A DNA stretch of 64,000 nt from positions 64,001-128,000 of the IMG/VR virus record IMGVR_UViG_3300023174_000058; one strand, given 5' to 3'. This DNA comes from a virus. Both the position numbers and the translations under genes were made by a program. Below are positions 32,721 through 64,000 of this stretch, piece after piece. The notes below the pieces were generated by a model. That model saw only the letters and a list, made by a program, of their open reading frames with translations, ran no database searches and was not told where the DNA came from. Within the stretch, counting starts at the first letter, position 1; each line of letters opens with the position of its first letter.

Positions 32721-34517
32721 ATGAACAAATCTTTTAAAGTAAATTATTTAGCAAAAGATTTTCAAACAATCAAGAATGATTTGAAAGATTACGCAAAAAG
32801 ATATTATACAAATGAGTTTGCTGATCTTTCAGAAGCTAGCATAAATTCATTTATGATAGACATGGCTGCTTATGTTGGCGATGTTTTATCTTATTATACT
32901 GATTATCAAGCTAACGAATCGTTTCTTGCAACTGCTATTGAAACACAAAATGTATTAAAGTTAGCAAAATCAATGGGCTATAAACAGGTTTCTGCAACTA
33001 CAACGGCTGGTAAAGTTGCAATGTATATGCTTATCCCATCAGATGGATACAATAATCCAGACTATTCAAGTGTTCCAATTATTCGTAAAGGATCGACACT
33101 AAAAACAATAGATAGCACAAGAATTTATTTAATAAACGAAGATGTTATTATAAACGAAAATTTTATTGGTACAAATTATGTTGTAGCCAGAACAAACGAT
33201 GTCGGCAACCCAACTTATTATGCAATTAAGTTTTATGTTCCAGTTATTTCCGGCGAGATAACAGAAAAAAATATACAAGTTGGTAACTTTATAAAATTTA
33301 ATAGAATTTATTTAAATGACGTAAACGCCGTTGAAATTATATCTATTGTAGATAGTGATGGCAATGAATATTATGAAGTACCAAACCTTTCACAAAACAT
33401 AATTTATAAATCTGTTTTAAATAAAGATACTACTGATTTATCGGTACGTTATGCTTTAAAACCAATTTCTGCTCAAAGAAGATTTGTATTTGAATTAGAT
33501 AATTTAAACCCATCGATGGTGTTTGGTGGCAAGCAATATAAACCAGATGAAGACTTAACTGTTGATCCTGTCGCAGAACCAAGCAAATTTATATTAAACA
33601 GATACAACAACGATTACCTACAGGATGCTTATTTTGACCCAAATAAATTATTAAATGGTGATTCTTATGGAATAGGCCCTGAAAATACTACTTTAACTGT
33701 GACTTATAGAAAAAATCTAAATCAAATAAATACTGCCAACACTGGTGAAATTACAGTTATTGATAATTTATCATATGAATTTACAAAATCTGTTGCAAGC
33801 GATATTGTAAATACAATTATTAGCAGCGTACAGGTTATAAATGAAGAGCCAATAGTTGGAGAAAACCTACAACTAACAGTTGATGAAGTTAAAGATCTGG
33901 CTGGTATTATCTATCAATCACAAAATAGAGCCGTTACAGCGAAAGACTACGAAGCGCTTACTTATATGATGCCAGCAAAATATGGTACAATCAAAAGAGT
34001 AAAAGCAGAACGTGATCCAAAAAGCTTAAAAAACAATATAAATCTCTACCTTGTGTGCTCTGACATCAACGGGTTACTTTCAGCCCCAAATACGCAAATA
34101 AAAGAAAATTTAAAAGTTTGGCTATCTGGTTACAAAATGATAACAGATACTGTTGATATCATTGATGCTAAAATTATTAATTTTGGAATCGATTATACAA
34201 TTTTAGTTGATCCAAACTTCAATAAATTGGATGTATATAATTTAGTTCAAAAACAATTACAATTTGTGTTTTCTTCAAAGCCACAGATTGGAGAATCTTT
34301 TAATAAATTAGATATTTATAGAGAAATTCAAAAAATTGAAGGCGTTTTAGATATAAAAGATATAAATATACGTAATATTACAGATTCTGGGTATTCACAA
34401 ACCACTTTTAATATAGAAGAAAATACAACTGAAGATGGCAATGTTATTTTAATGCCACGAAATGCTATATACGAAGTAAGATTTCCTACAATTGACATAG
34501 CAGGGAAAGCTATTTAA
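32721..34517 (+). CDS. Baseplate wedge protein, T4 gp6-like
   Basis: KDFQTIKNDL, IDMAAYVGDVLSYY.D...NESFL.TA, LAKSMGY, QNRAVTAKDYE. Confidence 0.92.
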   Translation: MNKSFKVNYLAKDFQTIKNDLKDYAKRYYTNEFADLSEASINSFMIDMAAYVGDVLSYYTDYQANESFLATAIETQNVLKLAKSMGYKQVSATTTAGKVAMYMLIPSDGYNNPDYSSVPIIRKGSTLKTIDSTRIYLINEDVIINENFIGTNYVVARTNDVGNPTYYAIKFYVPVISGEITEKNIQVGNFIKFNRIYLNDVNAVEIISIVDSDGNEYYEVPNLSQNIIYKSVLNKDTTDLSVRYALKPISAQRRFVFELDNLNPSMVFGGKQYKPDEDLTVDPVAEPSKFILNRYNNDYLQDAYFDPNKLLNGDSYGIGPENTTLTVTYRKNLNQINTANTGEITVIDNLSYEFTKSVASDIVNTIISSVQVINEEPIVGENLQLTVDEVKDLAGIIYQSQNRAVTAKDYEALTYMMPAKYGTIKRVKAERDPKSLKNNINLYLVCSDINGLLSAPNTQIKENLKVWLSGYKMITDTVDIIDAKIINFGIDYTILVDPNFNKLDVYNLVQKQLQFVFSSKPQIGESFNKLDIYREIQKIEGVLDIKDINIRNITDSGYSQTTFNIEENTTEDGNVILMPRNAIYEVRFPTIDIAGKAI

Positions 34518-35926
34518 TGCCAATTACAAAATATACTGCTTCGGCAGACACAACAATAGTTAATGCTTATTATCCTGATAGTTTAAATAGGGCTATATAT
34601 GCAAACTTAGGAGCAGCCGACTCTTTAGAGGTATTTTCTATTTATATTTCTGGCACTGAAACACAAAAAGCAAGAACTCTTGTTCAATTCCCAATTAGTG
34701 CCATATCATCAAGTAGAGTAGCCGGTTCAATACCAAGTTCAGGTAGTGTTAATTTTTATCTAAAGTTATTTAACGTAGAGCATCCTGAGACTTTACCTAA
34801 AAAATATTATGTTTCAGTAGATCCAATAACTGGTTCTTGGGATGAAGGATTCGGTTTAGATCTTGAAAACTATAGCGACAAAGGTCAAAGCGGCTCTATT
34901 GGCTATGGCTCCAACTGGAAATATAGATCGACAACTAATTCACCATATGTATGGGCAAGCGAAGGCGGTGATGTTGTTTCTGGCTATAACAAAACCTTTT
35001 ATTTTGATGAAGGTACCGAAGATTTAGACGTAAACATAACAGATATTGTTGAAGCTCAAATAAACGGCGTAATACCAAACAATGGCTTTATGATTAAACT
35101 ATCTGGTGCATATGAGGATGGTACAAACGCTACAACATATTATACAAAAAGATTCTCAGCAAGAAGCTCAGAATACTTTTATAAAGTACCAGTCATTGAA
35201 GCACGCTGGGAATCTGTTATAAAAGATGATAGAAATAACTTTTACTATGCAACGCCAAACTTAAGTTCAACCGATAATAATCAAAGCGTATATTTTTATA
35301 ATAAAGTTAATGGTATTTTAAAAGATATCCCAAGCTCAGTTGTTCCATTGGTTAATGTATATAATGAATCAGGAAATTTATTAACCGGTTCCATACAGTC
35401 GGTAAAAGTCTCAACTGGTACTTACAAAGCAACGATAAACATTACTGGGAGCTCAGAAGAATTACTACAAGATGTATGGTTTTCCGGTAGTAATGCGTAT
35501 TTTACGGGTTCTATTGATGCTAAGATTAGACAATTTGATGATTCAGCGATCCAGCCAGAATATATATTTGCTGTTACCAATTTAAAAAGCGTATATAGCT
35601 CTGAAGAAAAGCCAGCGATAAGAATCTTTGGAAGACAAAGAGATTGGTCGCCTAATATATATAAAGTTGCCTCTAAAGAAATTAATACCTTAACTTTTAA
35701 TAATTTATATTATAAAATAATAAGAATAGTTGATAACTCCACAATTATTGATTATGGCATTGAGCCAATTGCTTACACCTTATGTTCTTATGATAAAAAT
35801 GGTAATTATTTCGAGTTAGATATGTCAATGTTAGAACCGGGATACGCATACGGTATTAAGCTAATGTTATTAAATGGCGAGTTAAAGACAGAATTTAAAG
35901 ATATATTTAGATTTAAGGTTCAATAA
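34517..35926 (+). CDS. Virion structural protein (DNRLRE-like beta-sandwich N-terminus)
   Basis: ADTTI, RTLVQF, WDEG, NNGFMIK, P.IEARW pattern, plus genomic context. Confidence 0.6.
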   Translation: MPITKYTASADTTIVNAYYPDSLNRAIYANLGAADSLEVFSIYISGTETQKARTLVQFPISAISSSRVAGSIPSSGSVNFYLKLFNVEHPETLPKKYYVSVDPITGSWDEGFGLDLENYSDKGQSGSIGYGSNWKYRSTTNSPYVWASEGGDVVSGYNKTFYFDEGTEDLDVNITDIVEAQINGVIPNNGFMIKLSGAYEDGTNATTYYTKRFSARSSEYFYKVPVIEARWESVIKDDRNNFYYATPNLSSTDNNQSVYFYNKVNGILKDIPSSVVPLVNVYNESGNLLTGSIQSVKVSTGTYKATINITGSSEELLQDVWFSGSNAYFTGSIDAKIRQFDDSAIQPEYIFAVTNLKSVYSSEEKPAIRIFGRQRDWSPNIYKVASKEINTLTFNNLYYKIIRIVDNSTIIDYGIEPIAYTLCSYDKNGNYFELDMSMLEPGYAYGIKLMLLNGELKTEFKDIFRFKVQ

Positions 35927-38340
35927 TGGCAAGCACAATAGATATTTTTAATTCCGCTAAGATAGATCAGGCTAAATTAACTGGTAGCCAAGGTTTTTAT
36001 AATAATATAGGTGAAATAACTGAATCAGCCAAACTGCAAGACAAATTTATTTCTAACGTAGACTACTCTGATCCGGCTAATTTTGCTAGATTTGGCTCCG
36101 CTGAAGAATATTATAAAAATGCAATTACATATATTGCGACAGATTATCCATACGATTCATCTTTTTATGAAAAAACAAAGTGGATAAACAATTTAAATGA
36201 ATTAGAATACTATATTTTTAAAGAAGAATTCCCTAAATATAAAGGTTACGTTGAACTAAGCTCATCTCAATATATTGGAACATTTTCTCCATCAAGAGAC
36301 ATCCCAGATACTGACACAAAAAGCATTTATGTTAACGGAGAAAGATACTTTGTTAACGAATCATTAAACTTTAGTGATGGCTTTACGTTTGAAAGCTGGT
36401 TGAAATTTGATAACGTAACAAACACTCCAAACATTCTAACAATTAATACTGTTGTTTCTGGCGGTTCTGGCATTAATAACGTTGTTTTGCTTAAAGTATT
36501 TGCTAGCGCCAGTAATCTTTATGTTTCCGGTAACATTTCTCAGACTAATTTTTCATATAATTTACAAAATGGCAGCTGGAATCATTATGCAATTTCATTT
36601 AATGCAAACAGTTGTTCATTATATGTAGATGGGGAACGCACACAGCAAATACAAACAGACACTTTATTAAATACTGGTAGTTCCTATGTTTTTTATAGAG
36701 CTGGTTTAGTCCCTACAACTCAAACTTCAAGCTATTCCTCACTTGGGACATACATAACTTCCTCAGTATTTACTTTAGGAAGTGGGTCATTGTTATCATT
36801 AGATGAAACAAGATTCTGGAATAAGGAAAGAACTCTTGAAAACGTAGGCCGTTACTGGTTTACGGCTGTTGATGGAAATGATTTTTCGGATCCAAATACA
36901 AGTAATCTTATCCTTTATTATAAATACAATGAAGGCTGGGATGATGTAAATGGAAGCATTTGCTTAGATTATTCCGGTTTTAAGAAAGATGCAATCATTT
37001 ATAATTATAATTTATACGATTGTAGAAAAAGCGGATCAGCAATAGATGATTCTGGTTTGATTGAAGATTTAGAGCCTTCAAGTATTATCTATGCGCCTGC
37101 TATAAGTTATTCAACAGCATCACTAGAAGCGTTTTATGATCAAAAAGTACAATCTGGTACTGATTATGATGAGTTAAATGGCAACGCTTTATATAAAAAG
37201 TTTCCATCTTGGATACTTGAAGAAGAACAATTAAACGAGACAAAGCACTTAAAGCAAGTTATACAGATAGTTTCTTCATATTTTGATGATTTATACAATA
37301 AAATATCAGAAATATCTAACTATAAGCATCAGCAAATAACAACAGATGTTAATAAGCTGTATCCATTTTATGATAAAATATTAACTTCAACTGGATTTGA
37401 TGTAACGGAACTATTTAACAACTTAGATATTATTGAAAAGATCTCATCAAGATCGGAAAATAATATTTTTGATCAAGATATTCAAAAGATAAAAAATAGT
37501 ATATTCCAAAATATATATAACAATTTATCCTTCATACTAAAGTCAAAAGGAACTGAGAAATCTATTAAAAGTTTTCTTAGAAGTTATGGCATAAATGAAA
37601 ACTTGGTTCGTGTTAATCTTTATGCCGATAAATCAAATTACGTTATTAACGATAAATACGTTGAAACAACAGTAAAAAAGAAAACAATAACTCTTACAGA
37701 TAACAAGAATATATTTTTATCTGGTACTGCCGTTGACGCACCAGTAAGCGGCAACTATTTAACGCTTGAAACTTCTGTTATATTTCCAAAAATACTTTTG
37801 TCAAATGCCCCAGCAACAGCATCCATACTTGGGTACTATATTGCCAACAATTCAACAACATTTGCTACAAGTAGTACAAAGCATAGAGCGCTTATAACAG
37901 CAGAAACAGATCAATATGGATCTACTATTTGTTTTTATACAGGTTCAAATGGTACTTCGAATTTTAATTTAGTTGCCTCATCGTCAAAGATTCCAAATTT
38001 ATATGATGATACTGTATGGAATTTCGCTATAGGGCAAAGACCAGACGTTGACACTACGCTTGGAGTGCCTAGCTACCCGTATAAAATAGATTTTAGAGCA
38101 GTTAATACTCAAAAAGAGAACACTCCGATCATAACAGCGTCAGTTGGCTCAATATATGCTAGCGGGTTTCTTTCTGACTACGCCAGATATTTTATTGGAG
38201 CTTTTAATCAAGAAATGACAGGTTCCACGATATATAATTCAAATGCCAAATATTTATATTGTAATTATTGGACAAAGTATTTGAGCGACGATGAACTTAT
38301 TGCGCACAACAAGGACATATTAAGCTATGGCGTTGAATAG
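35926..38340 (+). CDS. Baseplate-associated protein with LamG/ConA-like domains (gp7-like motif)
   Basis: FTFESWLK, WNHYAISF, LYVDG, LDETRFWN (LamG), and KSKGTEKSIKSFLRSYG. Confidence 0.75.
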   Translation: MASTIDIFNSAKIDQAKLTGSQGFYNNIGEITESAKLQDKFISNVDYSDPANFARFGSAEEYYKNAITYIATDYPYDSSFYEKTKWINNLNELEYYIFKEEFPKYKGYVELSSSQYIGTFSPSRDIPDTDTKSIYVNGERYFVNESLNFSDGFTFESWLKFDNVTNTPNILTINTVVSGGSGINNVVLLKVFASASNLYVSGNISQTNFSYNLQNGSWNHYAISFNANSCSLYVDGERTQQIQTDTLLNTGSSYVFYRAGLVPTTQTSSYSSLGTYITSSVFTLGSGSLLSLDETRFWNKERTLENVGRYWFTAVDGNDFSDPNTSNLILYYKYNEGWDDVNGSICLDYSGFKKDAIIYNYNLYDCRKSGSAIDDSGLIEDLEPSSIIYAPAISYSTASLEAFYDQKVQSGTDYDELNGNALYKKFPSWILEEEQLNETKHLKQVIQIVSSYFDDLYNKISEISNYKHQQITTDVNKLYPFYDKILTSTGFDVTELFNNLDIIEKISSRSENNIFDQDIQKIKNSIFQNIYNNLSFILKSKGTEKSIKSFLRSYGINENLVRVNLYADKSNYVINDKYVETTVKKKTITLTDNKNIFLSGTAVDAPVSGNYLTLETSVIFPKILLSNAPATASILGYYIANNSTTFATSSTKHRALITAETDQYGSTICFYTGSNGTSNFNLVASSSKIPNLYDDTVWNFAIGQRPDVDTTLGVPSYPYKIDFRAVNTQKENTPIITASVGSIYASGFLSDYARYFIGAFNQEMTGSTIYNSNAKYLYCNYWTKYLSDDELIAHNKDILSYGVE

Positions 38341-41300
38341 TGACTTATTAGTATCATGGAATTTTGAGACTGTTACCGGATCAAATAGTAGTGGTCAATT
38401 TGAAGTTGCTGACGTGTCAACCACATATAGTGGTATAGGTACCGGCTTCGACGCCAATTCGCAAAATTTTATATTAAAAGAAGATATATTAACTGGTAAA
38501 AAACAACATTTTGAAACTCTTGAGGGATCTGACACAATACAGATTGTGGACTTTGATGACGAAAGAACCTCACAAATAAATAAACCAAGCTCAGTTAGAC
38601 TAGCGATTGAAAACAGCATGTATCAAATCGTTTCTGACGAGATGATGAACCTTTTTACCACAGTAAATTCGTATGCTTTCAAGTTTTCTGTACCAGATAA
38701 CAAATATCAACCAGAATACGATAAGCTTATTGAATTAAGAAAAGGCTTTTTTGAAAACATAGATGGCAAACCAGATTTAGAAAGATATATTGAATTTTAT
38801 AAATGGATCGATTCCTCACTAGGTGCGCTATTAGACCAATTAAAACCAGAAAATTCATCAGATATATCTGGATTAAAGGTAACTGTCGAAAGCCATATTT
38901 TAGAAAGAAACAAATATCAGCATCAATTACCTGTTACTATCGAGCCAAATAAAATTTTTTCTTCTGGAATTCAAGTAATAAAATCAAATGCTACAACTAG
39001 CTCAAATAAACAGGATTATTTAACTACTTCTGCCGATAATATTGCGGTTGATAATGATAAAGTTATCTCTGTTGGAAATATTTTAAACAAAAACTACTCC
39101 AGTAATACAGAAATTATTCAAACTGCTGGTAAGATTCATAATAATCGTGGTACAAAAGAAAATAAAACGGTTATACAAACAAAATTTAGCGCTGGTGACG
39201 GTCTTTCTGAGCAATTTAGAGATTCTTCGGAAGAATTTTCAGTATACAACGATACAAATCAACGCGCATTAAACCTTAGAACTGAATTTAATTTGTCCCA
39301 ATCGCAAGATAGAAGAATAGACCAAGGTACAAGCTCTAATGTTGATTTTGAAGATAATGCGTTTGTGCAGAGAAACGTACCTTATGCTGCTAGAAATTAT
39401 GCTCATACTGAATCAATAGATTATACAAGCATACCAAGCGAAGATATTTTACAACTAAGATATAATAATAGACTTATTTATGATCTAACAAACGGCAAAG
39501 AAGTAATAGAGCCTCCAATTCGATTTGCTGTATCAGCAAAACATAAAGTTAGAATGGTTGGTGCGTTTGAAGATATGGATATTGAATCTCCATATTATTC
39601 AAAGATTGATACTTTTACACCAAGAACACTAAACGCAACTGGTACTTCTGTTTATTTTGATAGAAGTGAGTTTGGTAGATTAGACGACGCTGATACATTT
39701 TATAAAAAAATTGATGGAGCTTCTACAAGCTCTATTGATATTAAACGTGTGGAAATTTTAGATAACATATTTCCACGTAAAGATATGATGGGACGCGCAG
39801 TAATACGTACTAAGTCAGACTATGAAGAAGAAAAAGGTACGTTTAGCAGCACAGAATTAACTTGGTCACAAAATAGCTATAATAATAACAGTGCAGATAT
39901 TAGAAGTTTTTGGAGAGATAATTATGAAGATCGAAAACGTACAAGAGGAGCAGATAACCCTACAAGTTACACTGGTTCAATAAATGCTCTTGGAAGTTAT
40001 AATTTGTCTGAAAGTAATTCATATCAACTTTCAAATCCCTCTAACTATTTGGTATTAACAGGTTCTAACTACTCTGGGACTTGCAATTTTACCACAAACA
40101 TATTTAATAATTATTATGATTTATTATCGACAGTAGAAGCAAGTAGTTCTGTGTCCGACAGGGCTGATCCTAGGATTTATATTGATTTAAGGTCTTCTGG
40201 GATTGGTGATATTTCTGCTTATTCACATGGGGAATTGAGCAAGTTTATAGTCTCTTCTTCTCTTGTCCCAAGAGCAAAACCAACTTTTATATTTAATAAC
40301 TTTCCAAGTTATATCTCTGATCGATATTACTATCCCGGCAGTTTTATATTTTCTGCGGGATACTACCCATCGGCTTCATTTGGATTTAATTTATCTTATC
40401 AAACAGGTTTAGACAGTAGAATAAAACCTTTTTATGATTCTTATAAATTATATTTTGAAAATATAAAGGGAAAATCTCATAATAGTTCCATAATCCCTGA
40501 ATTTCAAGTTTCAAATTTTGATAAACTGCTTTCACAAGATTTTAACGACCCATATGATAATGGAGAATATCTAAAAATACTAGGTAGAGAAAATACAGAT
40601 CAATATTATTCAAATATTTCCGATGCTCTTAATATAGACTTTAACAAATTTTTTGATAAAGACTCAAATAAGATAAAATTTAAATTTAATGGTATAAAAA
40701 AACTATTACCATATAATGGTTTTTATCCACAACAAGCATCTGCAAAGATTGTAAATTTATTTTCTTCTTCTTATTTTTCAGGCTCATCATTAGGAGAAGC
40801 ACAAAAGCAAACACTATTACAACCACTATTCGCCCCCGGTGTATTGTTCAACACAATAAAGGCCGGTATAGCAATGGATTATCCTGTTTGTATAACTTCA
40901 AGCTTAATTACAACAGCTAGTATTTATACCAACGTTTATAATAATACAAATACAGCTTCTTGCGATGAAAATATTAGAGTAATAAAGTCTGGTTCTATTA
41001 CAGATAGAGCGGCTTTTGAATCGTTGCTAGACCCAAAGAAATTTTATTTTGACTTATTTAGCGATTCGGATAAAAGACTTATTTATTTAGATCCGACTCA
41101 CTATAGCGATATTTTTACATATAATTCAGCTTCAAACGCTATTATTCCTTCGGCTTCTTATGCGGATATACAAGATTCATTTATAAACAATAAAGATGAT
41201 CAGTATAAAGCATATATAAACAACTTTTTATCAGAAATTCCAAATTTTTTCTTAAAAAATAACAATCTAACCTACTTCATATCACGCCCAGAAAGTGAAT

Positions 41301-53291: not shown

Positions 53292-53295
53292 AAAA

Positions 53296-53766
53296 ATGTC
53301 AATTTCATATCCAATCCCATCAGGCGGCGGCGGCACAGTAATTATAAGTCAACGCGCACAATATGCAATCCCCGCAACAATTAATACTAACTTTCCGATA
53401 GTAGTAAGCGGAGCTACTACTCCAACAGAGATAGCTACAATTTTTGTTCCTCCTACTTATCTTTACCAAATGTCCGGTAGCTACAATCTTATAGCTATTG
53501 GGTATATTACTGGCGCTTCTGGCATAACAGGCTCGCTTGAAATTACTTCATATGATACACATAACGTTTTTTTAACAGAATATGCTCCACTTGGCGATAA
53601 TTCTGCTATGGCTCTTAGGTTCACGGGCAGCTCAGATTATTTTACTTTAAACTATCCACTTAACATTGGGGCTGATTACGGAGCATCCCTCCCAGTAATG
53701 TTTTCTGGTTCTGTTTCAAACTACACGGCAAGCATTTATGGCTTTTATTTAAGCCCAACCGTATAG
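53296..53766 (+). CDS. Hypothetical beta-rich structural protein
   Basis: ATG at 53296 (MSISYPIPSGGGG...) follows the upstream stop codon. Confidence 0.65.
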   Translation: MSISYPIPSGGGGTVIISQRAQYAIPATINTNFPIVVSGATTPTEIATIFVPPTYLYQMSGSYNLIAIGYITGASGITGSLEITSYDTHNVFLTEYAPLGDNSAMALRFTGSSDYFTLNYPLNIGADYGASLPVMFSGSVSNYTASIYGFYLSPTV

Positions 53767-55876: not shown

Positions 55877-55901
55877 TTAAAACTAAAATAATTTAGTTTG
55901 G

Positions 55902-55930: not shown

Positions 55931-55949
55931 ATTTATCTTGTAAAACATA

Positions 55950-55957
55950 CTATTTAT
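55950..55957 (+). promoter_or_regulatory. Putative late promoter motif CTATTTAT
   Basis: Directly after the terminator and before an AAGGAG RBS. Confidence 0.62.
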
Positions 55958-55977
55958 TTTAGTTAAAGGAGCCGAAA

Positions 55978-57108: not shown

Positions 57109-57117
57109 AGGTTGATT

Positions 57118-58254
57118 ATGAAAAAAATAAATATTGGTATAACTTTATCTATAGATCCAACTGAATCTTTGTTTACTAATGGTATACGACAAAACATTCT
57201 TATTCTTAGAGAATTATATGAAAAATGCGAAGGTGTAGAAAAATCTTACATTATTAATACATCTGGAAAAAGCATCCCAGACGATCCAAAATTGCCACTT
57301 TATCCTTTTAGAGATGTCATAATAGATATCAAAGATGTAGTTAAATATTGTAATTTTGTTGTTGTTGCCCACGGTTCTTTGTTGCCAGCAGAGTATCAAG
57401 AATTGTCAAAAGCAGGAATAAAAATAACTAAACTTATTCTCGGACCATCAGTTAGTATTTTTAACGAAGGAATACTTTTTAAAGGCAATGATCAGCAACA
57501 AGGTAATTTTTATAGAAATAAAGGTAATGTTAGTAAAGTTTGGATGTCAAAACATTACTTTAAAGATAGATATTTTTTTGAAACAATCTATGGATGTGAA
57601 GCAAAAATTGCACCATATGTTTGGGATCCACGATTTATAGAAAAAAGCTGTTCAGATTTCCAAAATAACAATAAAAAAATAGCAGAATATATTCCAAGCG
57701 GTTTAAAAGAAAAAAGAATTGTTAATTTTGAGCCAAATTTAAATATGGTTAAGACTTCTACGCAATCTGTTGTAACTTTAGAAAGATTTTATCGGCAACA
57801 CCCAGAATATGTAGGAGATTGCTATTTTTTTAATACAGGCGTTATTAAGCAAAAAAAGGATTTTATTGATTTTGTAAAAGATTTAGATATTTACGTTTCA
57901 AAAAAACTTTCTTTTGAGGGCGGGATTGCGATAGTAAATGCTTTAGGTAATTATGGAGATGTAGTTTTAGCTAGTCAAAATCAAAATGAGCTAAATTATC
58001 TTTATTTAGATGCTGCTTGGATGGGATATCCAGTTCTACACAATTCAAGCATGATGAAAGAAATAGGATTTTATTATAAAGATAATGATGCTCAACAAGC
58101 TTCAAAAATATTATATAATATATGCAAAAATTTTGATAAAAATTACAAAAAATATAAACAAGAATCAAGAGAAAAATGTAAAAAGTATATGATTACAAAC
58201 GAACAACATATAAAAAATTATACAAAACTTATACATGAAGTAATGGATTCTTAA
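57118..58254 (+). CDS. DUF2827-like putative glycosyltransferase, copy 2
   Basis: IGIT...SLFTNGIRQN, PYVWDP, FEPNLNMVK, LNYLYLDAAWMGYPVLHNS...GFYY. Paralog of copy 1. Confidence 0.78.
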   Translation: MKKINIGITLSIDPTESLFTNGIRQNILILRELYEKCEGVEKSYIINTSGKSIPDDPKLPLYPFRDVIIDIKDVVKYCNFVVVAHGSLLPAEYQELSKAGIKITKLILGPSVSIFNEGILFKGNDQQQGNFYRNKGNVSKVWMSKHYFKDRYFFETIYGCEAKIAPYVWDPRFIEKSCSDFQNNNKKIAEYIPSGLKEKRIVNFEPNLNMVKTSTQSVVTLERFYRQHPEYVGDCYFFNTGVIKQKKDFIDFVKDLDIYVSKKLSFEGGIAIVNALGNYGDVVLASQNQNELNYLYLDAAWMGYPVLHNSSMMKEIGFYYKDNDAQQASKILYNICKNFDKNYKKYKQESREKCKKYMITNEQHIKNYTKLIHEVMDS

Positions 58255-58706: not shown

Positions 58707-58710
58707 CAAA

Positions 58711-58739: not shown

Positions 58740-60848
58740 ATGTCCACTGGCAATAGAAAACCGGTAAAAGTTTTGACCGATCTGCTTACAAAAAAGCAGA
58801 TCCTAAAAGAAGATTCTGACGGTAATATTCTTTTTAAAGTTTCTGGATCTCAAAATAATGGTATAATTAGTGCTTCTTTGCCAATAACAGGTACTGATGC
58901 TTATTTTAATAATGATGTAACGATCGATGGAGTTTTACGAGCAAGTCAAATAGAAGTTACAACATTAATTAATTCGTTAAATTATGAAACTTCCATATCC
59001 GCTTCTATTAATGCGCTTTTAGACGTTTCAGCCTCTACGGCAGAAGTGGATCAATTTTTAAAATGGGATGGCTCACAATGGGTTCCCGGTAATGTTAATA
59101 ATGGCTCAATAGGAGCAGCTGAGGATGGCGATTATACTGACGGTTTATTTACTGACTTTAATGATACCACGCCAGTTGGGACAGCTATTGATAGAATAAA
59201 TGAGGTTTTAAAAGGTCTAGCCCCCAAAGTTGCTCCCGATCTCACAAATTTAGAAAAAACATCCGGCGCAACTGGAACTAATATGCGTTTAGCTTTTGGT
59301 TCTTCATATTCGGTTGCAGGTTATACGAATGTCACTGCTTCAATTGGTGCAATATTATTAAATAAAGATTTTACGGAATCATTTACAACTATTAATGGAA
59401 ACGGCGGATATCCTATAAGACTAGGCGCGTATGCTACGCCTGTTGTCTTAACAATGTCGCTAAATAATAGTGTAGTATCAGACGCAGGAGCTTTTACAAA
59501 TTATCCGGCTAAGTCTTTTAATGTTTCGCAAAATGGTATCGGAAATTATATTTTAGAAGTTAATGGCGTACAAATAAATCCAACTGGTTCTACAAATAAT
59601 ACAAGTTTAGCAAATACAGAAACTTTTGCATTATCATTGGCTAATACTGCTTCTTTTATAGGATCCGGTCAAGGATTTGATTTATTTAGGCATAGAACTG
59701 GAACTGTAGGAATTCCTACGTCCCTATGGCAAAATGGTCATAACTATGTAAAAGTCATTCATAGCTCTTCTCTTGGAACACACGTTACCAACTATATAGA
59801 TTGGGTTTATGATCCTTCGGCAGCATCTGGAGTTGATTCTTATAGTTTTACCACGCCAATTTCAGCTTCTTTTACGGCAACTGGAACAAAACATCTATCT
59901 GGTATAAAATATTACACAAATATATCTTATAACTTTGCTACAACTGTTAGCAATTTCTTTAAAAATATATACCCAATTGCTGGTGGTTTAACTTTCAGTG
60001 GTTTAACATCAGGTTTAACTGTTAACAGCGTTACGATCCCAACTCCTACAACAAATCTTGATGATATCAATGTGAGTGTTGGACATACATTTAATGGTGC
60101 ATATAGGTTATTAGGTAGTTCGCTTGTGTCAACATTAAATTCTGCGAATGGTCTTGGAAAAGCTGGCTCTACTACATTAACAACCAATACTATTCTTTAT
60201 GACAACGTAAATACGGCAAATACGACAACAGCGGAAAATTTCTGCTTAGAAAATTATCGCGGTGAATCAGGTAGCTATGATACGCAAACAGCAGCTTTAA
60301 ATGCAATTGGGGCTTTCCCAAGCGGTTCTTCTTTAGGATCTAACGAATTGGCTGTTTATAATGATTCATTAAGATATCCAACCCAAATCTTAAACGGTGG
60401 TAACGTTAGTGGATCCGGTATTGTCCATATGATTTCAGGGCAGCCAAACTATTCTTCAGCATCCGGTAATAGAACATATCATCGTATCTTCCGCAATGGC
60501 TCAAGCTCTATAGCTGTATTTAATTTAGCAATTAATGGCGGAAGCGGTATTAATGTTGTACCTTTTGGCACAGCTTTAAACTCAAACAACGTTCATGTAT
60601 GGATCAAAATACCCGGAAAAACAGGCTGGCGTGATATAGCTACTGGTACCCCCGCCCCCGGCTATAGTGCCTTGGATAATAATTTAGGTGCTTTACAGGG
60701 TTCAAAAGTAACAACATCTACTTCTTCAACTCATACTATCAATTTATTAACCGAGGCGCTTGCTGTAAATGAATATTTTGTTTTAAGAATTGAAGCATCG
60801 GACGCTTGGACTAATAACATTGGTTCAATAACAATAACAGGATTGTAA
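58740..60848 (+). CDS. Ser/Thr/Gly-rich virion fibre or structural protein
   Basis: L.DV......Q.LKWDGSQWVP fibre motif and a beta-rich composition. Confidence 0.75.
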   Translation: MSTGNRKPVKVLTDLLTKKQILKEDSDGNILFKVSGSQNNGIISASLPITGTDAYFNNDVTIDGVLRASQIEVTTLINSLNYETSISASINALLDVSASTAEVDQFLKWDGSQWVPGNVNNGSIGAAEDGDYTDGLFTDFNDTTPVGTAIDRINEVLKGLAPKVAPDLTNLEKTSGATGTNMRLAFGSSYSVAGYTNVTASIGAILLNKDFTESFTTINGNGGYPIRLGAYATPVVLTMSLNNSVVSDAGAFTNYPAKSFNVSQNGIGNYILEVNGVQINPTGSTNNTSLANTETFALSLANTASFIGSGQGFDLFRHRTGTVGIPTSLWQNGHNYVKVIHSSSLGTHVTNYIDWVYDPSAASGVDSYSFTTPISASFTATGTKHLSGIKYYTNISYNFATTVSNFFKNIYPIAGGLTFSGLTSGLTVNSVTIPTPTTNLDDINVSVGHTFNGAYRLLGSSLVSTLNSANGLGKAGSTTLTTNTILYDNVNTANTTTAENFCLENYRGESGSYDTQTAALNAIGAFPSGSSLGSNELAVYNDSLRYPTQILNGGNVSGSGIVHMISGQPNYSSASGNRTYHRIFRNGSSSIAVFNLAINGGSGINVVPFGTALNSNNVHVWIKIPGKTGWRDIATGTPAPGYSALDNNLGALQGSKVTTSTSSTHTINLLTEALAVNEYFVLRIEASDAWTNNIGSITITGL

Positions 60849-60851
60849 TCA

Positions 60852-62279
60852 ATGGCTTTAACAGAAAAAAATCAGTTATTAATAGCATTTAAAAAACTTT
60901 ACGGTAAAAGTCACACAAGCGCTAAATTTGGCGTTTTCAATGAAAGTATTGGTTCATCCGTTCAATTAGGCGCTAGTACAATATTTGGTAGCGTAATACC
61001 AAGCAGCCCAAGTGGTTCGCTGTATAGTATTACGCAAAATATTGTAGAAAAAATTAAATTTGATCTCGTACCTATTTCGCTATCAACTTACGCCAGTACA
61101 TTAGGCTCTTTAGCTGGTACTACAATAGATGATGAAGGCGATACAGCGGTAAATGGTGTACATGCCTATCGTTTAGTTTTACCTTCTGATTATGTAATTA
61201 ACTCTTCCAATCCAAAGAAGGGCACTGGGTATTTTATAAATTCTGCTACAGCATCAGTATCTAATGGTGCCTTGCAGTTGGTTCCACCATCTTTTGGTGA
61301 CTTGTATACAGCAGAAATTAGTAGTTCTTCTGGTATTATTGGCGGTCTTGATGACGAAGATTATTATCTAGACTATTATTCCGGTATTTTATTTATACAA
61401 GATATTGGTAGAACTCCAACTGCCGTTACTGCTTATGCATATGTTGGCGACTTTGTTAGTGATATTATTTCGGATGTAGCAACTGATGTAATAACAGAAG
61501 TTATTGCTGGAACAAATTTAACTGGTGGCGGCACAAGCGGTTCTGTAACTGTAAGCTTAGAGGATAATATTTCTCTAACATCTGTAACGGCATCTTTATA
61601 CGGTACTGCTTCTTGGGCTACTACATCAAGTTATGCATTAAATGCTGCTACTGCAAGTTATGTTACTGCTTCTAATATTGATAATTTTACTTCTGATGTT
61701 AGAAGTCAATTTAGTGCTGGCACAAATATAAGCATAACTAGTGGCACTATATCAACAATTAATGTTCCCACTGTAACACAAGTAAGTGGAGCTATTTCAA
61801 ATTTTGCAACAAGAGCAGAAGTTACTGGTGCGCTTTCTCCATACGCTCTTTCAATAGATGTATCATCTTCGTTCACAACACCAGCACAAGTAACGGGAGC
61901 TTTTTCTGTTGTAACTGCAAAAAATGCAGAAACTGCAAGTTATGCATTAAATACAACATTTTCTACTACTAATATACAAAATGCTTATAACCGATTAAGA
62001 TACAAAGAAGTAGGTTTTTTTGATCACACTGGTAGCGCTACAGTGCAGCTTCCAACTTCTTCTTTGGGAGGCGCAGCTTTTCCTGTTACTTCATTAGATT
62101 ATATAAATGTAAATGTTAGCGTGCTTGATGATGGTACGTGGGTTAATGATATTTTTGCTGTATCTGTATACACTGCTTCAAATCATGTTTATGTAGATTT
62201 ATGGGCCCCAGATCTTCACGAAACAGATAAATACAAATTATTGGCAATCAATCAAGATCCAAGTTTATTTATAATTTAA
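60852..62279 (+). CDS. Virion fibre protein
   Basis: YLDYYSGILF, ITEVIAGTNLTGGGTSGSVTV, TASYAL repeats, and a C-terminal domain shared with the ORF at 53882. Confidence 0.75.
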   Translation: MALTEKNQLLIAFKKLYGKSHTSAKFGVFNESIGSSVQLGASTIFGSVIPSSPSGSLYSITQNIVEKIKFDLVPISLSTYASTLGSLAGTTIDDEGDTAVNGVHAYRLVLPSDYVINSSNPKKGTGYFINSATASVSNGALQLVPPSFGDLYTAEISSSSGIIGGLDDEDYYLDYYSGILFIQDIGRTPTAVTAYAYVGDFVSDIISDVATDVITEVIAGTNLTGGGTSGSVTVSLEDNISLTSVTASLYGTASWATTSSYALNAATASYVTASNIDNFTSDVRSQFSAGTNISITSGTISTINVPTVTQVSGAISNFATRAEVTGALSPYALSIDVSSSFTTPAQVTGAFSVVTAKNAETASYALNTTFSTTNIQNAYNRLRYKEVGFFDHTGSATVQLPTSSLGGAAFPVTSLDYINVNVSVLDDGTWVNDIFAVSVYTASNHVYVDLWAPDLHETDKYKLLAINQDPSLFII

Positions 62280-62408
62280 AAAATTTAATTAATTCCTTTA
62301 AAACGATTTGTTATAATCGTTAATAATATTTTATTTCTAAAAACCATTTATTAAATTAAAAACTAATTAATTAGATAATTTGGACTATTTTATAGGAATT
62401 AATGTTTG

Positions 62409-63350
62409 ATGGAATATCAACCAGTTAGAGTTTTAGCTGATTTAGAAGCCTTACAAGACGTTGTTGTTAGTGGTTCGCTTATAATCACTACCGATACTGC
62501 CTTTAGCGCATCTGCTATAGCAACTGGTGCGGTTGGCGAGTATTCTGTTGACGAGGCATTTCACACCCTTGATCAATCAGTATATCAAACAAATGCAAAT
62601 ATTGCTAATGCTATTGCTGGTGTTGTTACTGCTTATAACAACAACAGATATATTTTCAGTGGGTCATTAGATTCCAGCGGATCTGCCGTTTTAAATTTAA
62701 CCACTAGTATTATTTCTGGCAGCGAAAACTTTTCTTCAACTGAATTAGCAAAAGTTACTGTTAATTTATTAATTGATACCAACGGCGATGGTAGATATCG
62801 CAATGATTTAACTTCTTACGAAATTTATACTTCTGGTAGCGAATTATTAGTTAGTATTGATGCCCCTGCTTCTCCAAATAATAATTACCGTTTAATTGTT
62901 TCTAATGAAAAACCATTAAATCCTATCTCTGGTAGCAATGGAATCCTTATAATAGCTGGCCCACAGGGAGTAGCTGGCCCGTCTGGTTCTACTGGTGCGG
63001 AGGGGAGATCTCATATAAACGTTGCGTCTCTTTTGTCAACAACCAATTCAATTGAAACAGTTGCGTCTAATTTCTCACTAAGCCCAGCAAAAGCACCTAA
63101 TGGTTTTTACATTGACGTGACTGGTTTTACACAGGACAGCTCTTTTCCCTTGGTTGTAAAATTATATAATCTAACAACCGATTCGCTTCTTGATTCAGAT
63201 TTAATAAATACTTTGTCTCCACAAACAGTTCGCTTGAACGGAGCAATCCCATCTGTTTCTAATACTCAATTTGAATTAAGATATTACTCTTCTGGCTCTT
63301 CCAGCAACTATGTATATTTACAAACAGCAATAGTGGAAATTACAAATTAA
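62409..63350 (+). CDS. Virion fibre protein with a short collagen-like linker
   Basis: Domain shared with the ORFs at 53882 and 60852; GPQGVAGPSGSTGAEG. Confidence 0.75.
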   Translation: MEYQPVRVLADLEALQDVVVSGSLIITTDTAFSASAIATGAVGEYSVDEAFHTLDQSVYQTNANIANAIAGVVTAYNNNRYIFSGSLDSSGSAVLNLTTSIISGSENFSSTELAKVTVNLLIDTNGDGRYRNDLTSYEIYTSGSELLVSIDAPASPNNNYRLIVSNEKPLNPISGSNGILIIAGPQGVAGPSGSTGAEGRSHINVASLLSTTNSIETVASNFSLSPAKAPNGFYIDVTGFTQDSSFPLVVKLYNLTTDSLLDSDLINTLSPQTVRLNGAIPSVSNTQFELRYYSSGSSSNYVYLQTAIVEITN

Positions 63351-63364
63351 TTGGAGAAATAAAT

Positions 63365-64000
63365 ATGTCTTTAGAATTATCTTGGTCTTGTTCAGGTTCT
63401 GTTTCTGGTCAGACAGTCAACGTAATAAATCCATATACAGATGTAGTCAATGGTCCAGCATGGGAACTCTGGTGGTTTAAAGAAAGATTAAAAGAGTTTG
63501 GTTGGACTGTTGTTAGCTCATCTAACTCCTCAACAGCTAGCGCTGGGGATCTTTGGGGGTCCACATTTGATTCTACAACATCAGATGGTGCGACTAAAAA
63601 CGCCAAAATTAAATTTGGTTCAAATTCTGCTGCGCGTTCATGGATTGCTCTTGCTGCTCCAACTGGTAGCAATGCAGCAGGTCATCATTTGATTATTGAT
63701 TACGGAAATGAATCAAACGTGGCGTACAGAGCGCAGTTTATTTTTAATAAAGGCGCTATTAGCGGTGGCGCTACAAATTCAAGACCAACTGGAAGCTACG
63801 AAATGGGGCTTTCTGTTGCTGGTGGTTTAGCGTCAAAAGATATTGCTTTTCATGATTCAACAACTAACTCTTCTGCTCAACATAGAGTTAATTTTCACGC
63901 CGCGACAAACGGCGCTTTCTATATATCAGAAGTTCAGGTTGGAAAGGGTAGGTTTACTTTCTTTTTGTCTTTCCTACCTCTACAAAACACACACGCTGTA
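63365..64000 (+). CDS. Structural protein, 3'-truncated by the window edge (not in ORF track)
   Basis: GGAG RBS, then MSLELSWSCSGSVSGQ...LKEFGWTVVSSSN..., open to the end of the window. Confidence 0.75.
   Translation, partial: MSLELSWSCSGSVSGQTVNVINPYTDVVNGPAWELWWFKERLKEFGWTVVSSSNSSTASAGDLWGSTFDSTTSDGATKNAKIKFGSNSAARSWIALAAPTGSNAAGHHLIIDYGNESNVAYRAQFIFNKGAISGGATNSRPTGSYEMGLSVAGGLASKDIAFHDSTTNSSAQHRVNFHAATNGAFYISEVQVGKGRFTFFLSFLPLQNTHAV

What the first reader, a model, noticed from the sequence alone, without database searches (positions are those of the whole stretch)
34517..64000. Pervasive hydrophobic-[ST]-[GAS]-S micro-motif in a subset of structural proteins: candidate glycosylation sequon
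Seen: unrelated structural proteins repeatedly contain ITGS, LTGS, FTGS, FSGS, VSGS, ISGS, ISAS, VSAS, LTAS, ISSS and VTSS. Examples: ORF 34517 has ITGS twice plus LTGS, FSGS, FTGS and ISSS; ORF 49045 has FSGS, VSSS, ISAS, LTAS and LSSS; ORFs 52410, 58740, 60852 and 62409 have many more. By eye the motif is scarce in gp6, the 1990-aa protein, ORF 45878 and the enzymes. Inference: convergent accumulation of one short motif across non-homologous surface proteins suggests a recognition site for a phage-encoded modifying enzyme, such as an O-glycosyltransferase. I have not computed the enrichment.
Basis: inference. Interest (0 to 1): 0.75.

Follow-up and report, generated by a model that had tools for sequence, protein, structure and literature searches.

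The report
Serine motif on phage tail proteins
The outer baseplate and tail-fibre proteins of this uncultured 162-kb aquatic T4-type phage, and of its whole clade, carry the short motif hydrophobic-Ser/Thr-Gly/Ala/Ser-Ser about four times more often than chance; it may be an attachment tag for sugars made by the phage's own enzymes, but a purely structural role is almost as likely and no chemistry has tested either.

Summary
Observation confirmed. In 13 structural ORFs (34517-64000), [ILVF][ST][GAS]S occurs 58 times against 13-15 expected, even under 8-residue local shuffles (z about 12.6). Most permutations of the motif are not enriched. The last slot accepts Ser but not Thr or Asn. SGS is the most over-represented of all tripeptides. 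Codons vary, so the signal is at protein level.

The excess is clade-wide. Two large families average 4.1-4.7 motifs against 0.5-0.7 expected, and positions turn over between homologs. It is absent from T4, Syn9 and three near-complete Ser-rich aquatic phages.

The interpretation remains open. For a sequon:
- The 12 modelled sites lie in mixed structural contexts.
- A distant ortholog keeps the fold without the motif.
- A soluble sugar/GT cluster with no membrane or export genes lies upstream of the baseplate genes.
- An ortholog of its first GT (w9370) occurs in 6 of 7 motif-rich and 0 of 6 motif-poor genomes.

Against:
- G007 (83% complete) is motif-rich without that GT.
- Cultured HTVC008M has a 2.4-fold excess and no detectable GT.
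- In relatives the motif is the unit of periodic fibre repeats.
- The DUF2827 pair in the fibre cluster tracks a different, motif-poor fibre.

My odds: glycosylation tag about 0.45, structural idiom about 0.40. This scan has noted the same motif on other phage genomes.

The parts
34517..35926 (+). 469-aa conserved outer baseplate protein built of tandem Ig/FN3/CBM-like beta-sandwiches. Six motifs, at residues 63, 104, 289, 309, 322 and 329.
   Evidence: 6 vs 0.55 expected. Across 117 homologs the mean is 4.12 vs 0.54. AF2 pLDDT 79.7 with mixed structural contexts.
35926..38340 (+). 804-aa structural protein with a LamG/ConA-like domain. Four motifs.
   Evidence: 4 vs 0.99. Pfam PF13385. The family is found only in motif-rich genomes.
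38327..42826 (+). 1499-aa structural protein. Six motifs.
   Evidence: 6 vs 1.49, p=0.0025.
43659..45878 (+). 739-aa structural protein. Three motifs.
   Evidence: 3 vs 0.87.
49045..50115 (+). 356-aa fibre or baseplate protein of a very large aquatic family. Six motifs.
   Evidence: 6 vs 1.05. Across 118 homologs the mean is 4.66 vs 0.74, with positional turnover over about 20 columns. AF2 places the sites in four loops, one helix start and one strand start.
50381..51286 (+). 301-aa protein sharing its C-terminal domain with ORF 49045. Three motifs.
   Evidence: 3 vs 0.47. Paralogy shown.
52410..53291 (+). 293-aa protein with a 10-residue tandem repeat PVxV[ST][AS]S. Eight motifs, which are not independent.
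   Evidence: 8 vs 1.05. Repeat contexts.
53260..53766 (+). 168-aa protein. Three motifs (ITGS, FTGS, FSGS).
   Evidence: 3 vs 0.36.
58740..60848 (+). 702-aa fibre protein. Seven motifs.
   Evidence: 7 vs 1.27.
60852..62279 (+). 475-aa fibre protein. Four motifs, including the module VTASLYGTASWA that is also seen in distant phages.
   Evidence: 4 vs 1.31.
62406..63350 (+). 314-aa fibre protein with a TTG start. Five motifs.
   Evidence: 5 vs 0.84. It is a paralog of the next large ORF beyond the window.
53882..55876 (+). 664-aa Ser/Ala-rich fibre that is NOT motif-enriched. Its family co-occurs with DUF2827.
   Evidence: 2 vs 1.98. Homologs are present in all DUF2827-carrying genomes examined and are not enriched in any of them.
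55978..58254 (+). Two tandem motif-free DUF2827 (PF10933) paralogs, predicted cytoplasmic glycosyltransferases, inside the fibre cluster.
   Evidence: Pfam E-values 4.7e-78 and 2.4e-71. 36% identical to each other. Literature.
9370..11822 (+). Adjacent pair of GT-B (GT1/GT4-type) glycosyltransferases. This is the GT component that best tracks motif richness.
   Evidence: Pfam PF00534/PF13692. Both have orthologs in G002 and G004. w9370 orthologs are also in G001, G003 and G041 and absent from G007 and G009. G001 and G003 each also show a second GT1-family hit next to the first.
8400..21519 (+). Sixteen-gene soluble sugar-nucleotide and glycosyltransferase cluster: RmlB-like, 2 GT1, GT2, RmlC, epimerase, RmlD, GT2/GT92, DegT aminotransferase, WbqC, methyltransferase, hexapeptide acyltransferase, GH130-like, PhyH dioxygenase, GT2, TagD-like nucleotidyltransferase.
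   Evidence: Pfam, NCBIfam and PDB. No predicted membrane protein in the cluster.
26288..34517 (+). Motif-free comparators: the 1990-aa protein, the gp25-like ORF 32290 and the gp6-like ORF 32721.
   Evidence: 0 motifs in each. PHROG baseplate wedge hits for ORFs 32290 and 32721.

Best explanation
The motif Φ-[ST]-[GAS]-S, with core [ST]-[GAS]-S and a preference for hydrophobic residues on both sides, is an acceptor tag for O-glycosylation of Ser on the outward-facing baseplate and fibre proteins.

Proposed mechanism. Virion proteins fold and assemble in the cytoplasm. There, soluble phage-encoded GT-B enzymes transfer sugar directly from nucleotide sugars made by the adjacent cluster. The conserved adjacent pair w9370/w10614 is the best candidate. 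The dTDP-rhamnose branch (RmlB, RmlC, RmlD) is conserved in the clade; the amino-sugar tailoring genes vary. The sugars would go onto exposed Ser residues that follow a buried hydrophobic residue.

The DUF2827 pair inside the fibre cluster more probably serves the neighbouring Ser/Ala-rich fibre ORF 53882 than this motif.

Shown: the motif excess, its order and residue specificity, its clade-wide presence, its positional turnover, and the existence and make-up of the soluble GT cluster.

Inferred: that any sugar is attached, which enzyme does it, and which Ser is modified.
For: 1. The excess is order-specific and robust to local composition: 58 vs about 15, z about 12.6. The last slot is Ser-only (T 0.98x, N 0.69x). 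SGS is the top-ranked tripeptide.
2. It is confined to outer virion proteins and absent from enzymes, the 1990-aa protein and the gp6- and gp25-like wedge proteins.
3. The 12 modelled sites in two unrelated proteins sit in helices, strands, strand ends and loops, so there is no single structural role.
4. In two families of about 117 homologs each, density is held at 4-5 per protein while sites occupy about 11-20 alternative columns. The slots change together; at q309 the joint frequency is 0.42 against 0.15 under independence.
5. The G009 ortholog of ORF 34517 keeps the fold and has only one motif. It reads VSGL and WKGL at two hot sites and has a deletion at a third.
6. Ser-rich proteins of other phages are not enriched: G008 1.03, G039 1.21, G009 0.96, T4 0.87, Syn9 0.99.
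7. The sugar cluster has no flippase, polymerase or initiating transferase, and the genome has no multi-pass membrane protein. This fits a cytoplasmic acceptor.
8. A w9370-type GT is present in 6 of 7 motif-rich genomes, including the separate lineage G041, and in 0 of 6 motif-poor ones.
9. Published flagellin O-GT sites lie next to hydrophobic or small residues and have no strict sequon (PMC11339370). A Rha-Rha-modified-viosamine glycan on flagellin is made by a comparable enzyme set (PMC3927599).
Against: - No chemistry exists.
- G007 has the highest motif density (5.76x) but no ortholog of the GT pair and no RmlC in the 83% recovered. Its only weak GT1-like ORF sits in a replication/DNA-modification neighbourhood.
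- Cultured HTVC008M (complete genome) shows a 2.4-fold excess in its Ser-rich proteins, which are mostly baseplate and fibre genes, with no hit to five GT families.
- The GT correlation rests on two or three lineages, so it is largely a matter of clade membership.
- In relatives the motif is the unit of 6- and 15-residue periodic fibre repeats.
- Several sites are more than 85% conserved and slot 1 is always hydrophobic, as a structural element would be.
- Non-structural proteins show no avoidance of the motif.
- Comparable clusters in cyanomyoviruses are usually read as host-surface or DNA modification genes (PMC12801897).
Confidence: 0.45

Rival explanations
1. Structural sequence idiom. Φ-[ST]-[GAS]-S is a favoured way for these beta-rich fibrous and Ig-like proteins to end a buried strand position and enter a tight turn or arc: a small, flexible G/A/S followed by Ser. 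It would have been inherited with particular baseplate and fibre families and multiplied by repeat duplication and module exchange among aquatic T4-type phages. No modification is involved.
For: - In distant phages the motif is the repeating unit of 6-residue periodic arrays (ITGSLTVSGSSTFT, spacings 6/12/18) and of 15-residue Φ[ST]AS[YW]A modules, with up to 38 copies in one 1115-aa fibre.
- ORF 52410 carries it in a 10-residue repeat.
- Slot 1 is invariably hydrophobic, and several sites are more than 85% conserved across 117 homologs.
- Site q322 (FS|GS) is a textbook two-residue hairpin turn in the model.
- Hydrophobic residues flank both sides (4.4x).
- Genes found only in motif-rich genomes are all structural families.
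- HTVC008M shows the idiom without any detected GT, and G007 shows it without the GT pair.
- DUF2827 presence does not predict it.
Against: - The 12 modelled sites fall in helix, strand interior, strand end and loop, so one structural role does not fit all.
- Sites are replaced by unrelated polar sequences or deletions in homologs (IKKD, ID-T), and the G009 ortholog keeps the fold without them.
- T4, Syn9 and three Ser-rich aquatic phages, which have comparable fibre and baseplate architectures, show no excess.
- Permutations with the same composition, such as Φ[GAS][ST]S, are not enriched.
Confidence: 0.4
2. The motif is a functional surface feature other than a glycosylation site. It could be a tag for a different serine modification, such as phosphorylation or glycerol-phosphate transfer using the TagD-like enzyme. 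It could also be an unmodified hydroxyl-rich patch that aids hydration or weak binding to host polysaccharide.
For: - Ser specificity in the last slot and exposure of slots 3-4.
- A TagD/RfaE-II-like nucleotidyltransferase (w21106) is shared by G000, G002, G004 and G007, and P-SSM2 has a homolog. tblastn found none in G008, G009 or G039.
Against: - No kinase or glycerophosphotransferase was identified.
- The w21106 profile rests on few genomes, and P-SSM2 carries the gene with only a 1.5-fold excess.
- Nothing distinguishes this reading positively from the other two.
Confidence: 0.1
3. Artefact of Ser/Gly-rich composition, local low complexity or a DNA-level repeat.
For: The motif-rich proteins are Ser-rich, at 11-16% Ser.
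Against: - 8-, 15- and 30-residue local shuffles leave the excess intact.
- Permutations are not enriched.
- Equally Ser-rich proteins, such as ORF 53882 and those of G008, G009 and G039, are not enriched.
- Ser codons in the motif are a mix of TCN and AGY, so no nucleotide repeat is involved.
Confidence: 0.02

Closest known systems
Virion glycosylation of mycobacteriophages by phage-encoded glycosyltransferases (Freeman et al. 2023, as summarised in PMC12619734)
   Same: Phage-encoded GTs acting on virion proteins in the cytoplasm. A glycan coat on the particle is the proposed outcome.
   Different: There the glycans sit at the C-termini of the capsid and tail-tube subunits and were shown by mass spectrometry. 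Here the candidate sites are dispersed internal motifs on baseplate and fibre proteins, the enzymes are unrelated GT-B and DUF2827 proteins, and nothing has been shown chemically.
Cytoplasmic O-glycosylation of flagellin (P. syringae Fgt1/Fgt2 with the vio genes; Maf enzymes) (PMC3927599, PMC11339370)
   Same: Soluble GTs modify exposed Ser/Thr of a filament protein before assembly. Sites lie next to hydrophobic or small residues. The P. syringae glycan (modified viosamine-Rha-Rha) needs rhamnose genes, an aminotransferase, an acyltransferase and a methyltransferase, a set that this cluster also has at domain level.
   Different: No conserved sequon is known for flagellins, whereas here there is a sharply defined four-residue pattern. 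Homology of the phage GTs to Fgt1/Fgt2 or Maf was not tested. RmlA was not found in the cluster.
DUF2827 proteins next to trimeric autotransporter adhesins (bioRxiv 10.64898/2026.01.22.700529), and BAHT/TibC heptosylation of AIDA-I/TibA
   Same: Predicted cytoplasmic GTs in 2-3 tandem copies beside genes for fibrous surface proteins. This phage has two tandem DUF2827 genes inside its fibre cluster.
   Different: DUF2827 does not track this motif. Bacterial DUF2827 neighbourhoods are depleted in it (0.61x). Three DUF2827-bearing phages have no excess, and two motif-rich relatives lack DUF2827. It co-occurs instead with the motif-poor fibre ORF 53882.
Periodic sequence repeats of phage fibre proteins (structural repeats)
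   Same: In relatives the motif recurs with 6- and 15-residue periodicity, and in ORF 52410 with 10-residue periodicity.
   Different: Most copies in the window are isolated and lie in non-repetitive Ig-like or other domains, in varied secondary-structure contexts. No solved structure matched the one motif-dense fibre searched.
'Cell-wall synthesis and modification' / LPS gene clusters of large cyanomyoviruses (P-SSM2, S-SCSM1, S-SCSM2R; PMC12801897)
   Same: Similar gene content: GTs, NDP-sugar epimerases, RmlC, TagD, a GH130-type phosphorylase.
   Different: Those clusters are interpreted as modifying the host surface or DNA. P-SSM2 shows only a 1.5-fold motif excess. No link to a virion motif has been proposed for them.

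Membership tests
Phage virion glycosylation (mycobacteriophage type) | Phage-encoded glycosyltransferases | tested here: met
   GT1 x2, GT2 x3-4 and DUF2827 x2 by Pfam
Phage virion glycosylation (mycobacteriophage type) | Glycans demonstrated on virion proteins | not testable with these tools
   Needs mass spectrometry or glycan staining of virions. No cultured member was found.
Phage virion glycosylation (mycobacteriophage type) | Acceptor at the C-terminus of capsid and tail-tube subunits | tested here: not met
   Motifs are internal and lie on baseplate and fibre proteins. Most large structural ORFs beyond the fibre cluster are near expectation, e.g. 0/0.46, 0/0.24, 0/0.26, 1/0.60, 2/0.63.
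Flagellin-type rhamnose/viosamine O-glycosylation | dTDP-rhamnose pathway RmlA-D | tested here: inconclusive
   RmlB-like, RmlC and RmlD are present. No RmlA-type thymidylyltransferase is in the cluster, only a TagD-like nucleotidyltransferase.
Flagellin-type rhamnose/viosamine O-glycosylation | Aminotransferase, acyltransferase and methyltransferase for a modified 4-amino-4,6-dideoxyhexose | tested here: met
   DegT, hexapeptide transferase and SAM methyltransferase domains. This is domain level only, and these genes vary among relatives.
Flagellin-type rhamnose/viosamine O-glycosylation | Homology of the GTs to Fgt1/Fgt2 or Maf | not tested
   No reference sequences were compared.
DUF2827-adhesin systems | Full-length PF10933 protein(s) adjacent to a fibrous surface-protein gene | tested here: met
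   E-values 4.7e-78 and 2.4e-71, directly downstream of fibre ORF 53882. The same fibre family is present in all DUF2827-bearing phages examined.
DUF2827-adhesin systems | If DUF2827 reads this motif, its neighbours elsewhere should be enriched in it | tested here: not met
   80 bacterial loci give 0.61x. G008, G009 and G039 give about 1.0-1.2x genome-wide. G002 and G004 are motif-rich without DUF2827.
Known bacterial sequons (PglB D/E-X-N-X-S/T; PglL WPAAASAP, both quoted in PMC11339370; Bacteroidetes D-[ST]-[AILVMT], recalled from memory) | Sequence pattern of the sequon | tested here: not met
   The enriched pattern is Φ-[ST]-[GAS]-S, with no Asn, Asp or Pro requirement.
Structural fibre repeat | Regular periodic spacing of the motif | tested here: inconclusive
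   Periodic in ORF 52410 (10 aa) and in the L036, L044 and L063 fibres (6 and 15 aa). Most window copies are isolated.
Structural fibre repeat | One recurring secondary-structure context | tested here: not met
   12 modelled sites: 2 helix, 3 strand (2 interior, 1 strand start), 2 strand-end/turn, 5 loop. The models have moderate confidence (pLDDT 76-80).

The most novel reading that the evidence does not exclude
Φ-[ST]-[GAS]-S is a true O-glycosylation sequon. It is read in the cytoplasm by a conserved phage GT-B pair that coats the outer baseplate and fibres of a globally abundant clade of aquatic T4-type phages with rhamnose-based glycans. This would be the first defined acceptor code for phage virion glycosylation. 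A second system, DUF2827, would be dedicated to a coiled-coil-like fibre.
Probability: 0.4. Interest if true: 0.85.

Novelty: new variant of a known kind. Interest (0 to 1): 0.6.

Why it matters
Virion glycosylation by phage-encoded enzymes is experimentally established only in mycobacteriophages, and no acceptor code is known for any phage.

The two protein families analysed here have thousands of homologs in freshwater and marine metagenomes. A defined sequon would let glycan-coated virion surfaces be predicted from sequence across an abundant phage group. It would also give a function to the 'LPS-like' sugar clusters of aquatic myoviruses and offer a short tag for glyco-engineering.

If the motif is instead structural, it is a compact sequence signature of a set of fibre and baseplate folds that have no solved structures. 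That would be useful for annotating the many unnamed tail proteins of uncultured phages.

Either way, the work separates two things that looked like one system. The DUF2827 pair in the fibre cluster does not explain the motif.

Tried and rejected
- **Composition or low-complexity artefact:** rejected by local shuffles and permutation controls.
- **DNA-level repeat:** rejected because codons vary.
- **Paralogy as the sole cause:** only a few shared C-terminal domains were found.
- **DUF2827 as the reader of the motif:** rejected.
- **RmlC/rhamnose pathway as a universal partner:** absent from 39 DUF2827-bearing records, including motif-rich G007, and not found in G001 or G003, which are 71% and 85% complete.
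- **Close or cultured relatives:** none for the DNA, for ORF 34517 or for DUF2827 in 50,697 phage records. ORF 60852 gave one marginal hit.
- **PDB sequence search with a motif-dense fibre:** no hit.
- **PHROGs on ten motif-rich proteins:** one marginal hit.
- **Solvent accessibility:** could not be computed because model coordinates are not exposed. Substitution patterns were used instead.
- **Phylogenetic profile by tblastn:** with -max_hsps 1 and in multi-query mode it dropped true hits. It was redone with phmmer. Absences are therefore less certain than presences.
- **w21106 (TagD-like) as a marker:** fragile, so kept only as a passing note.
- **G007's weak GT1-like ORF as a divergent member of the GT pair:** rejected. 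There is no similarity, and it lies in a replication/DNA-modification context.
- **Freeman et al. 2023:** could not be read because it is not held.
- **Complex prediction:** not used, because enzyme-substrate pairs are poorly suited to it.

Full report
**Setting.** The window is bases 64001-128000 of a single 162,187-bp virus contig. CheckV estimates it at 89% complete. GC is about 0.30-0.38. It has no nucleotide or protein relatives among 50,697 deposited phage records.

Gene order on the + strand:
- auxiliary genes (ClpP, PhoH and others);
- a 16-gene sugar-nucleotide/glycosyltransferase cluster at 8400-21519;
- an M23-peptidase protein, a 1990-aa protein, and gp25- and gp6-like wedge proteins;
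- from 34517 onward, a long run of baseplate-periphery and fibre genes, interrupted at 55978-58254 by two DUF2827 paralogs.

- Eleven ORFs between 34517 and 63350 individually exceed 2000 composition-preserving shuffles, with p from below 0.0005 (none of 2000 shuffles) to 0.04. No upstream enzyme nor the gp6-like, 1990-aa and 45878 proteins has a copy.
- Pooled, 58 copies compare with 13.0 expected by global shuffling and 13.8, 14.6 and 15.4 by shuffling within 30-, 15- and 8-residue blocks (z about 12.6). Local Ser-rich patches therefore do not explain it.
- Of the other 23 orderings of the same four residue classes, only three related ones are clearly enriched: Φ-S-[GAS]-[ST], [ST][GAS]S-Φ and S[GAS][ST]-Φ.
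- Each slot is specific. Slot 1 takes V/I/F/L, and also P. Slot 2 takes S/T only. Slot 3 takes G/A/S only. Slot 4 takes Ser (63 vs 16.6) but not Thr (13 vs 11.5).
- Under 15-residue shuffles the core [ST][GAS]S is 2.15-fold enriched, 3.3-fold after a hydrophobic residue and 4.4-fold with hydrophobic residues on both sides. Thr or Asn in the last slot gives 0.98 and 0.69.
- In an unbiased scan of all tripeptides SGS ranks first (35 vs 9.1), TGS third and TAS fifth.
- Ser codons in the motif are a mixture of TCN and AGY, so the signal is at protein level.
- Caveats: the eight copies in ORF 52410 belong to a 10-residue tandem repeat, a few proteins share C-terminal domains, and the very Ser-rich fibre ORF 53882 is not enriched.

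**How far does it extend?** ORF 34517 belongs to a family of more than 1000 near-constant-length metagenomic proteins.
- In 117 of them the mean is 4.12 motifs against 0.54 expected. Some sites are strongly conserved (q104, q195, q322). Others are present only in subsets and are replaced elsewhere by unrelated polar sequences or deletions.
- Eighty IMG/VR loci of this family (35-72% identity, GC 0.28-0.47) nearly all show 3- to 9-fold excesses (mostly 4-8) in the neighbouring Ser-rich proteins wherever enough sequence is present.
- A second, unrelated family (ORF 49045, more than 5600 homologs including Tara and GOS samples) averages 4.66 against 0.74. Motifs are spread over about 20 columns, each occupied in 5-50% of members.

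Whole-genome observed/expected ratios in proteins with at least 9% Ser:

| Genome | Ratio |
|---|---|
| G000 (this phage) | 3.49 |
| G002 | 4.39 |
| G004 | 4.36 |
| G007 | 5.76 |
| G008 | 1.03 |
| G039 | 1.21 |
| G009 | 0.96 |
| T4 (25 structural proteins) | 0.87 |
| Syn9 | 0.99 |
| P-SSM2 | 1.48 |
| HTVC008M | 2.38 |

The motif is therefore not a generic property of Ser-rich or T4-type tail proteins. It is a trait of particular aquatic lineages.

**Structural context.** An AlphaFold model of ORF 34517 (pLDDT 79.7) shows tandem Ig/FN3/CBM-like beta-sandwiches. Its six sites are in a helix (63), at a strand end entering a loop (104), inside strands (289, 329), in a hairpin loop (309) and at a two-residue hairpin turn (322). 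The ORF 49045 model (pLDDT 76) puts its six sites in four loops, one helix start and one strand start. Slot 1 is always hydrophobic, while slots 3 and 4 accept polar and charged residues.

The distant G009 ortholog of ORF 34517 has only one motif. It reads VSGL and WKGL at two hot sites and has a deletion at a third.

Against this, in distant phages the motif is plainly the unit of fibre repeats. One kind is a 6-residue periodic array (ITGSLTVSGSSTFT). Another is a 15-residue Φ[ST]AS[YW]A module. One fibre has 38 copies.

**Candidate enzymes.** The cluster at 8400-21519 encodes an RmlB-like enzyme, two GT-B (GT1/GT4-type) enzymes, GT2-type enzymes, RmlC, an epimerase/reductase, RmlD, a DegT aminotransferase, WbqC, a methyltransferase, a hexapeptide acyltransferase, a GH130-like protein, a PhyH dioxygenase and a TagD-like nucleotidyltransferase.
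- It contains no predicted membrane protein, and the genome has no multi-pass membrane protein. A lipid-carrier polysaccharide pathway encoded by the phage alone is therefore unlikely.
- The first half (RmlB-like, both GT-B genes, GT2, RmlC, epimerase, RmlD) is conserved at 35-89% identity in the near-complete relatives G002 and G004. The tailoring genes are variable.
- The two DUF2827 genes are full-length PF10933 proteins. A 2026 preprint describes this family as predicted cytoplasmic GTs found in 2-3 tandem copies next to trimeric autotransporter adhesins.

**Testing the link between motif and enzymes.**

*DUF2827.*
- It occurs on 293 IMG/VR contigs and 363 bacterial stretches.
- Bacterial DUF2827 neighbourhoods are depleted in the motif (0.61x). 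Viral ones are heterogeneous.
- With working positive controls, DUF2827 is absent from the motif-rich G002 (98% complete) and G004 (92%), and present in the motif-poor G008, G009 and G039.
- It co-occurs instead with homologs of the motif-poor fibre ORF 53882.

*RmlC.* Found only in G000, G002 and G004.

*The GT-B pair.*
- Both genes have orthologs in G002 and G004.
- w9370 orthologs are also in G001 (54%), G003 (46%) and G041 (37%). None is in G007 or G009, and HMM searches found none in G008, G039, P-SSM2, Syn9 or HTVC008M. T4 has no GT1-family hit.
- G041 has no detectable ORF 34517 homolog, so it represents a separate lineage that has both the GT and motif-rich fibres.
- The tally is 6 of 7 motif-rich against 0 of 6 motif-poor genomes. 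Only two or three independent lineages are represented.

*Two counter-examples.*
- G007 has the highest motif density. In its 83% recovered it has only a sub-threshold GT1-like ORF, beside a DNA polymerase and a TGT/DpdA-like gene.
- HTVC008M has a complete genome and a 2.4-fold excess in its Ser-rich proteins, mostly in its annotated baseplate module. It has no hit to PF00534, PF13692, PF13704 or DUF2827, and only an unconfirmed sub-threshold PF00535 signal.

A phmmer profile shows that the genes restricted to motif-rich genomes are all structural families.

**Reading.** Two explanations survive.

*Sequon reading.* It best accounts for:
- the varied structural contexts;
- the positional turnover with maintained density;
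- the Ser-only last slot;
- the confinement to outward-facing proteins;
- the soluble GT cluster upstream of the baseplate genes;
- the GT-B association.

It also fits what is known of cytoplasmic flagellin O-GTs, whose sites lie among hydrophobic and small residues (PMC11339370), and the rhamnose/modified-viosamine glycan of P. syringae flagellin (PMC3927599).

*Structural-idiom reading.* It best accounts for:
- the periodic repeats in relatives;
- the invariant hydrophobic slot 1 and the highly conserved sites;
- the inheritance with particular protein families;
- the G007 and HTVC008M cases.

I put the sequon reading at about 0.45, the structural idiom at about 0.40, another serine-directed function at about 0.10, and artefact at about 0.02.

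**Relation to earlier notes of this scan.** Notes on this genome had flagged the DUF2827 pair. I confirmed the family assignment but found that it does not track the motif. Notes on other genomes (e1-5644667, e1-5764702) report the same [S/T]-[G/A/S]-S excess and a link to a conserved transferase pair. My data partly agree (6 of 7 against 0 of 6) and add two counter-examples. The phenomenon has therefore been seen before in this scan on other DNA. I found no published description of such a motif.

**Novelty.** If the sequon reading is right, this is a new variant of a known kind: phage virion glycosylation, with a defined acceptor code and different enzymes. If the structural reading is right, it is a useful sequence signature of uncharacterised fibre folds.

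Noticed in passing
window 53882-58254; G007, G008, G009, G039: DUF2827 genes co-occur with homologs of the Ser/Ala-rich fibre ORF 53882 in all five DUF2827-bearing phage genomes examined. This includes the otherwise nearly unrelated 82-kb G039. G002 has none and G004 only a weak partial hit. The fibre is not enriched in the Φ-[ST]-[GAS]-S motif. This points to that fibre as DUF2827's substrate, in parallel with the bacterial association between DUF2827 and trimeric autotransporters.
   Followed up: partly
window 21106-21519: A 137-aa TagD/RfaE-II-like nucleotidyltransferase (best PDB match glycerol-3-phosphate cytidylyltransferase 1coz, E 8.5e-19, but far below equivalog cut-offs). It is shared with G002, G004, G007 and P-SSM2 and was not found in G008, G009 or G039. 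Substrate unknown.
   Followed up: partly
window 22117-23121: A 334-aa protein with a weak sigma-70/ECF-like NCBIfam hit, conserved in G002, G004, G007 and G009 and placed just upstream of the baseplate module. It may be a late sigma factor.
   Followed up: no
window 52410-53291: A 10-residue tandem repeat (xxxPVxV[ST][AS]S, about 8 units from residue 79 to 162) in a 293-aa protein that matches no Pfam or PHROG family.
   Followed up: no
G003:C1:82685-85276: The w9370 ortholog in G003 matches in two pieces (query residues 4-284 and 287-411) within a single 875-aa open frame. That implies an in-frame insertion of roughly 440 residues, possibly an intein or an inserted domain.
   Followed up: no
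L281:12331-15366 (G007:132331-135369): In G007 a methyltransferase, a sub-threshold GT1-like protein and a weak TGT/DpdA-like protein lie together just downstream of the family-B DNA polymerase and upstream of a clamp-loader-like ATPase. This looks like a DNA-modification module.
   Followed up: partly
genome 51329-51847, minus strand (12.7 kb upstream of the window): A 172-aa minus-strand ORF with one predicted transmembrane segment carries three copies of the motif against 0.2 expected. It is the only significant case outside the structural module and may be a spurious ORF.
   Followed up: no
P-SSM2 (AY939844) 18953-20746: A 597-aa Ser-rich protein of cyanophage P-SSM2 has the repeat FSGSGSHTHS, which combines the SGS motif with His-x-His units. 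From memory, these resemble the metal-binding HxH repeats of the T4 gp37 fibre tip.
   Followed up: no
method note: tblastn against a whole genome held as a single subject dropped true hits, both with -max_hsps 1 and in multi-query mode. Absence calls made that way are unreliable; phmmer on ORF sets was used instead.
   Followed up: yes
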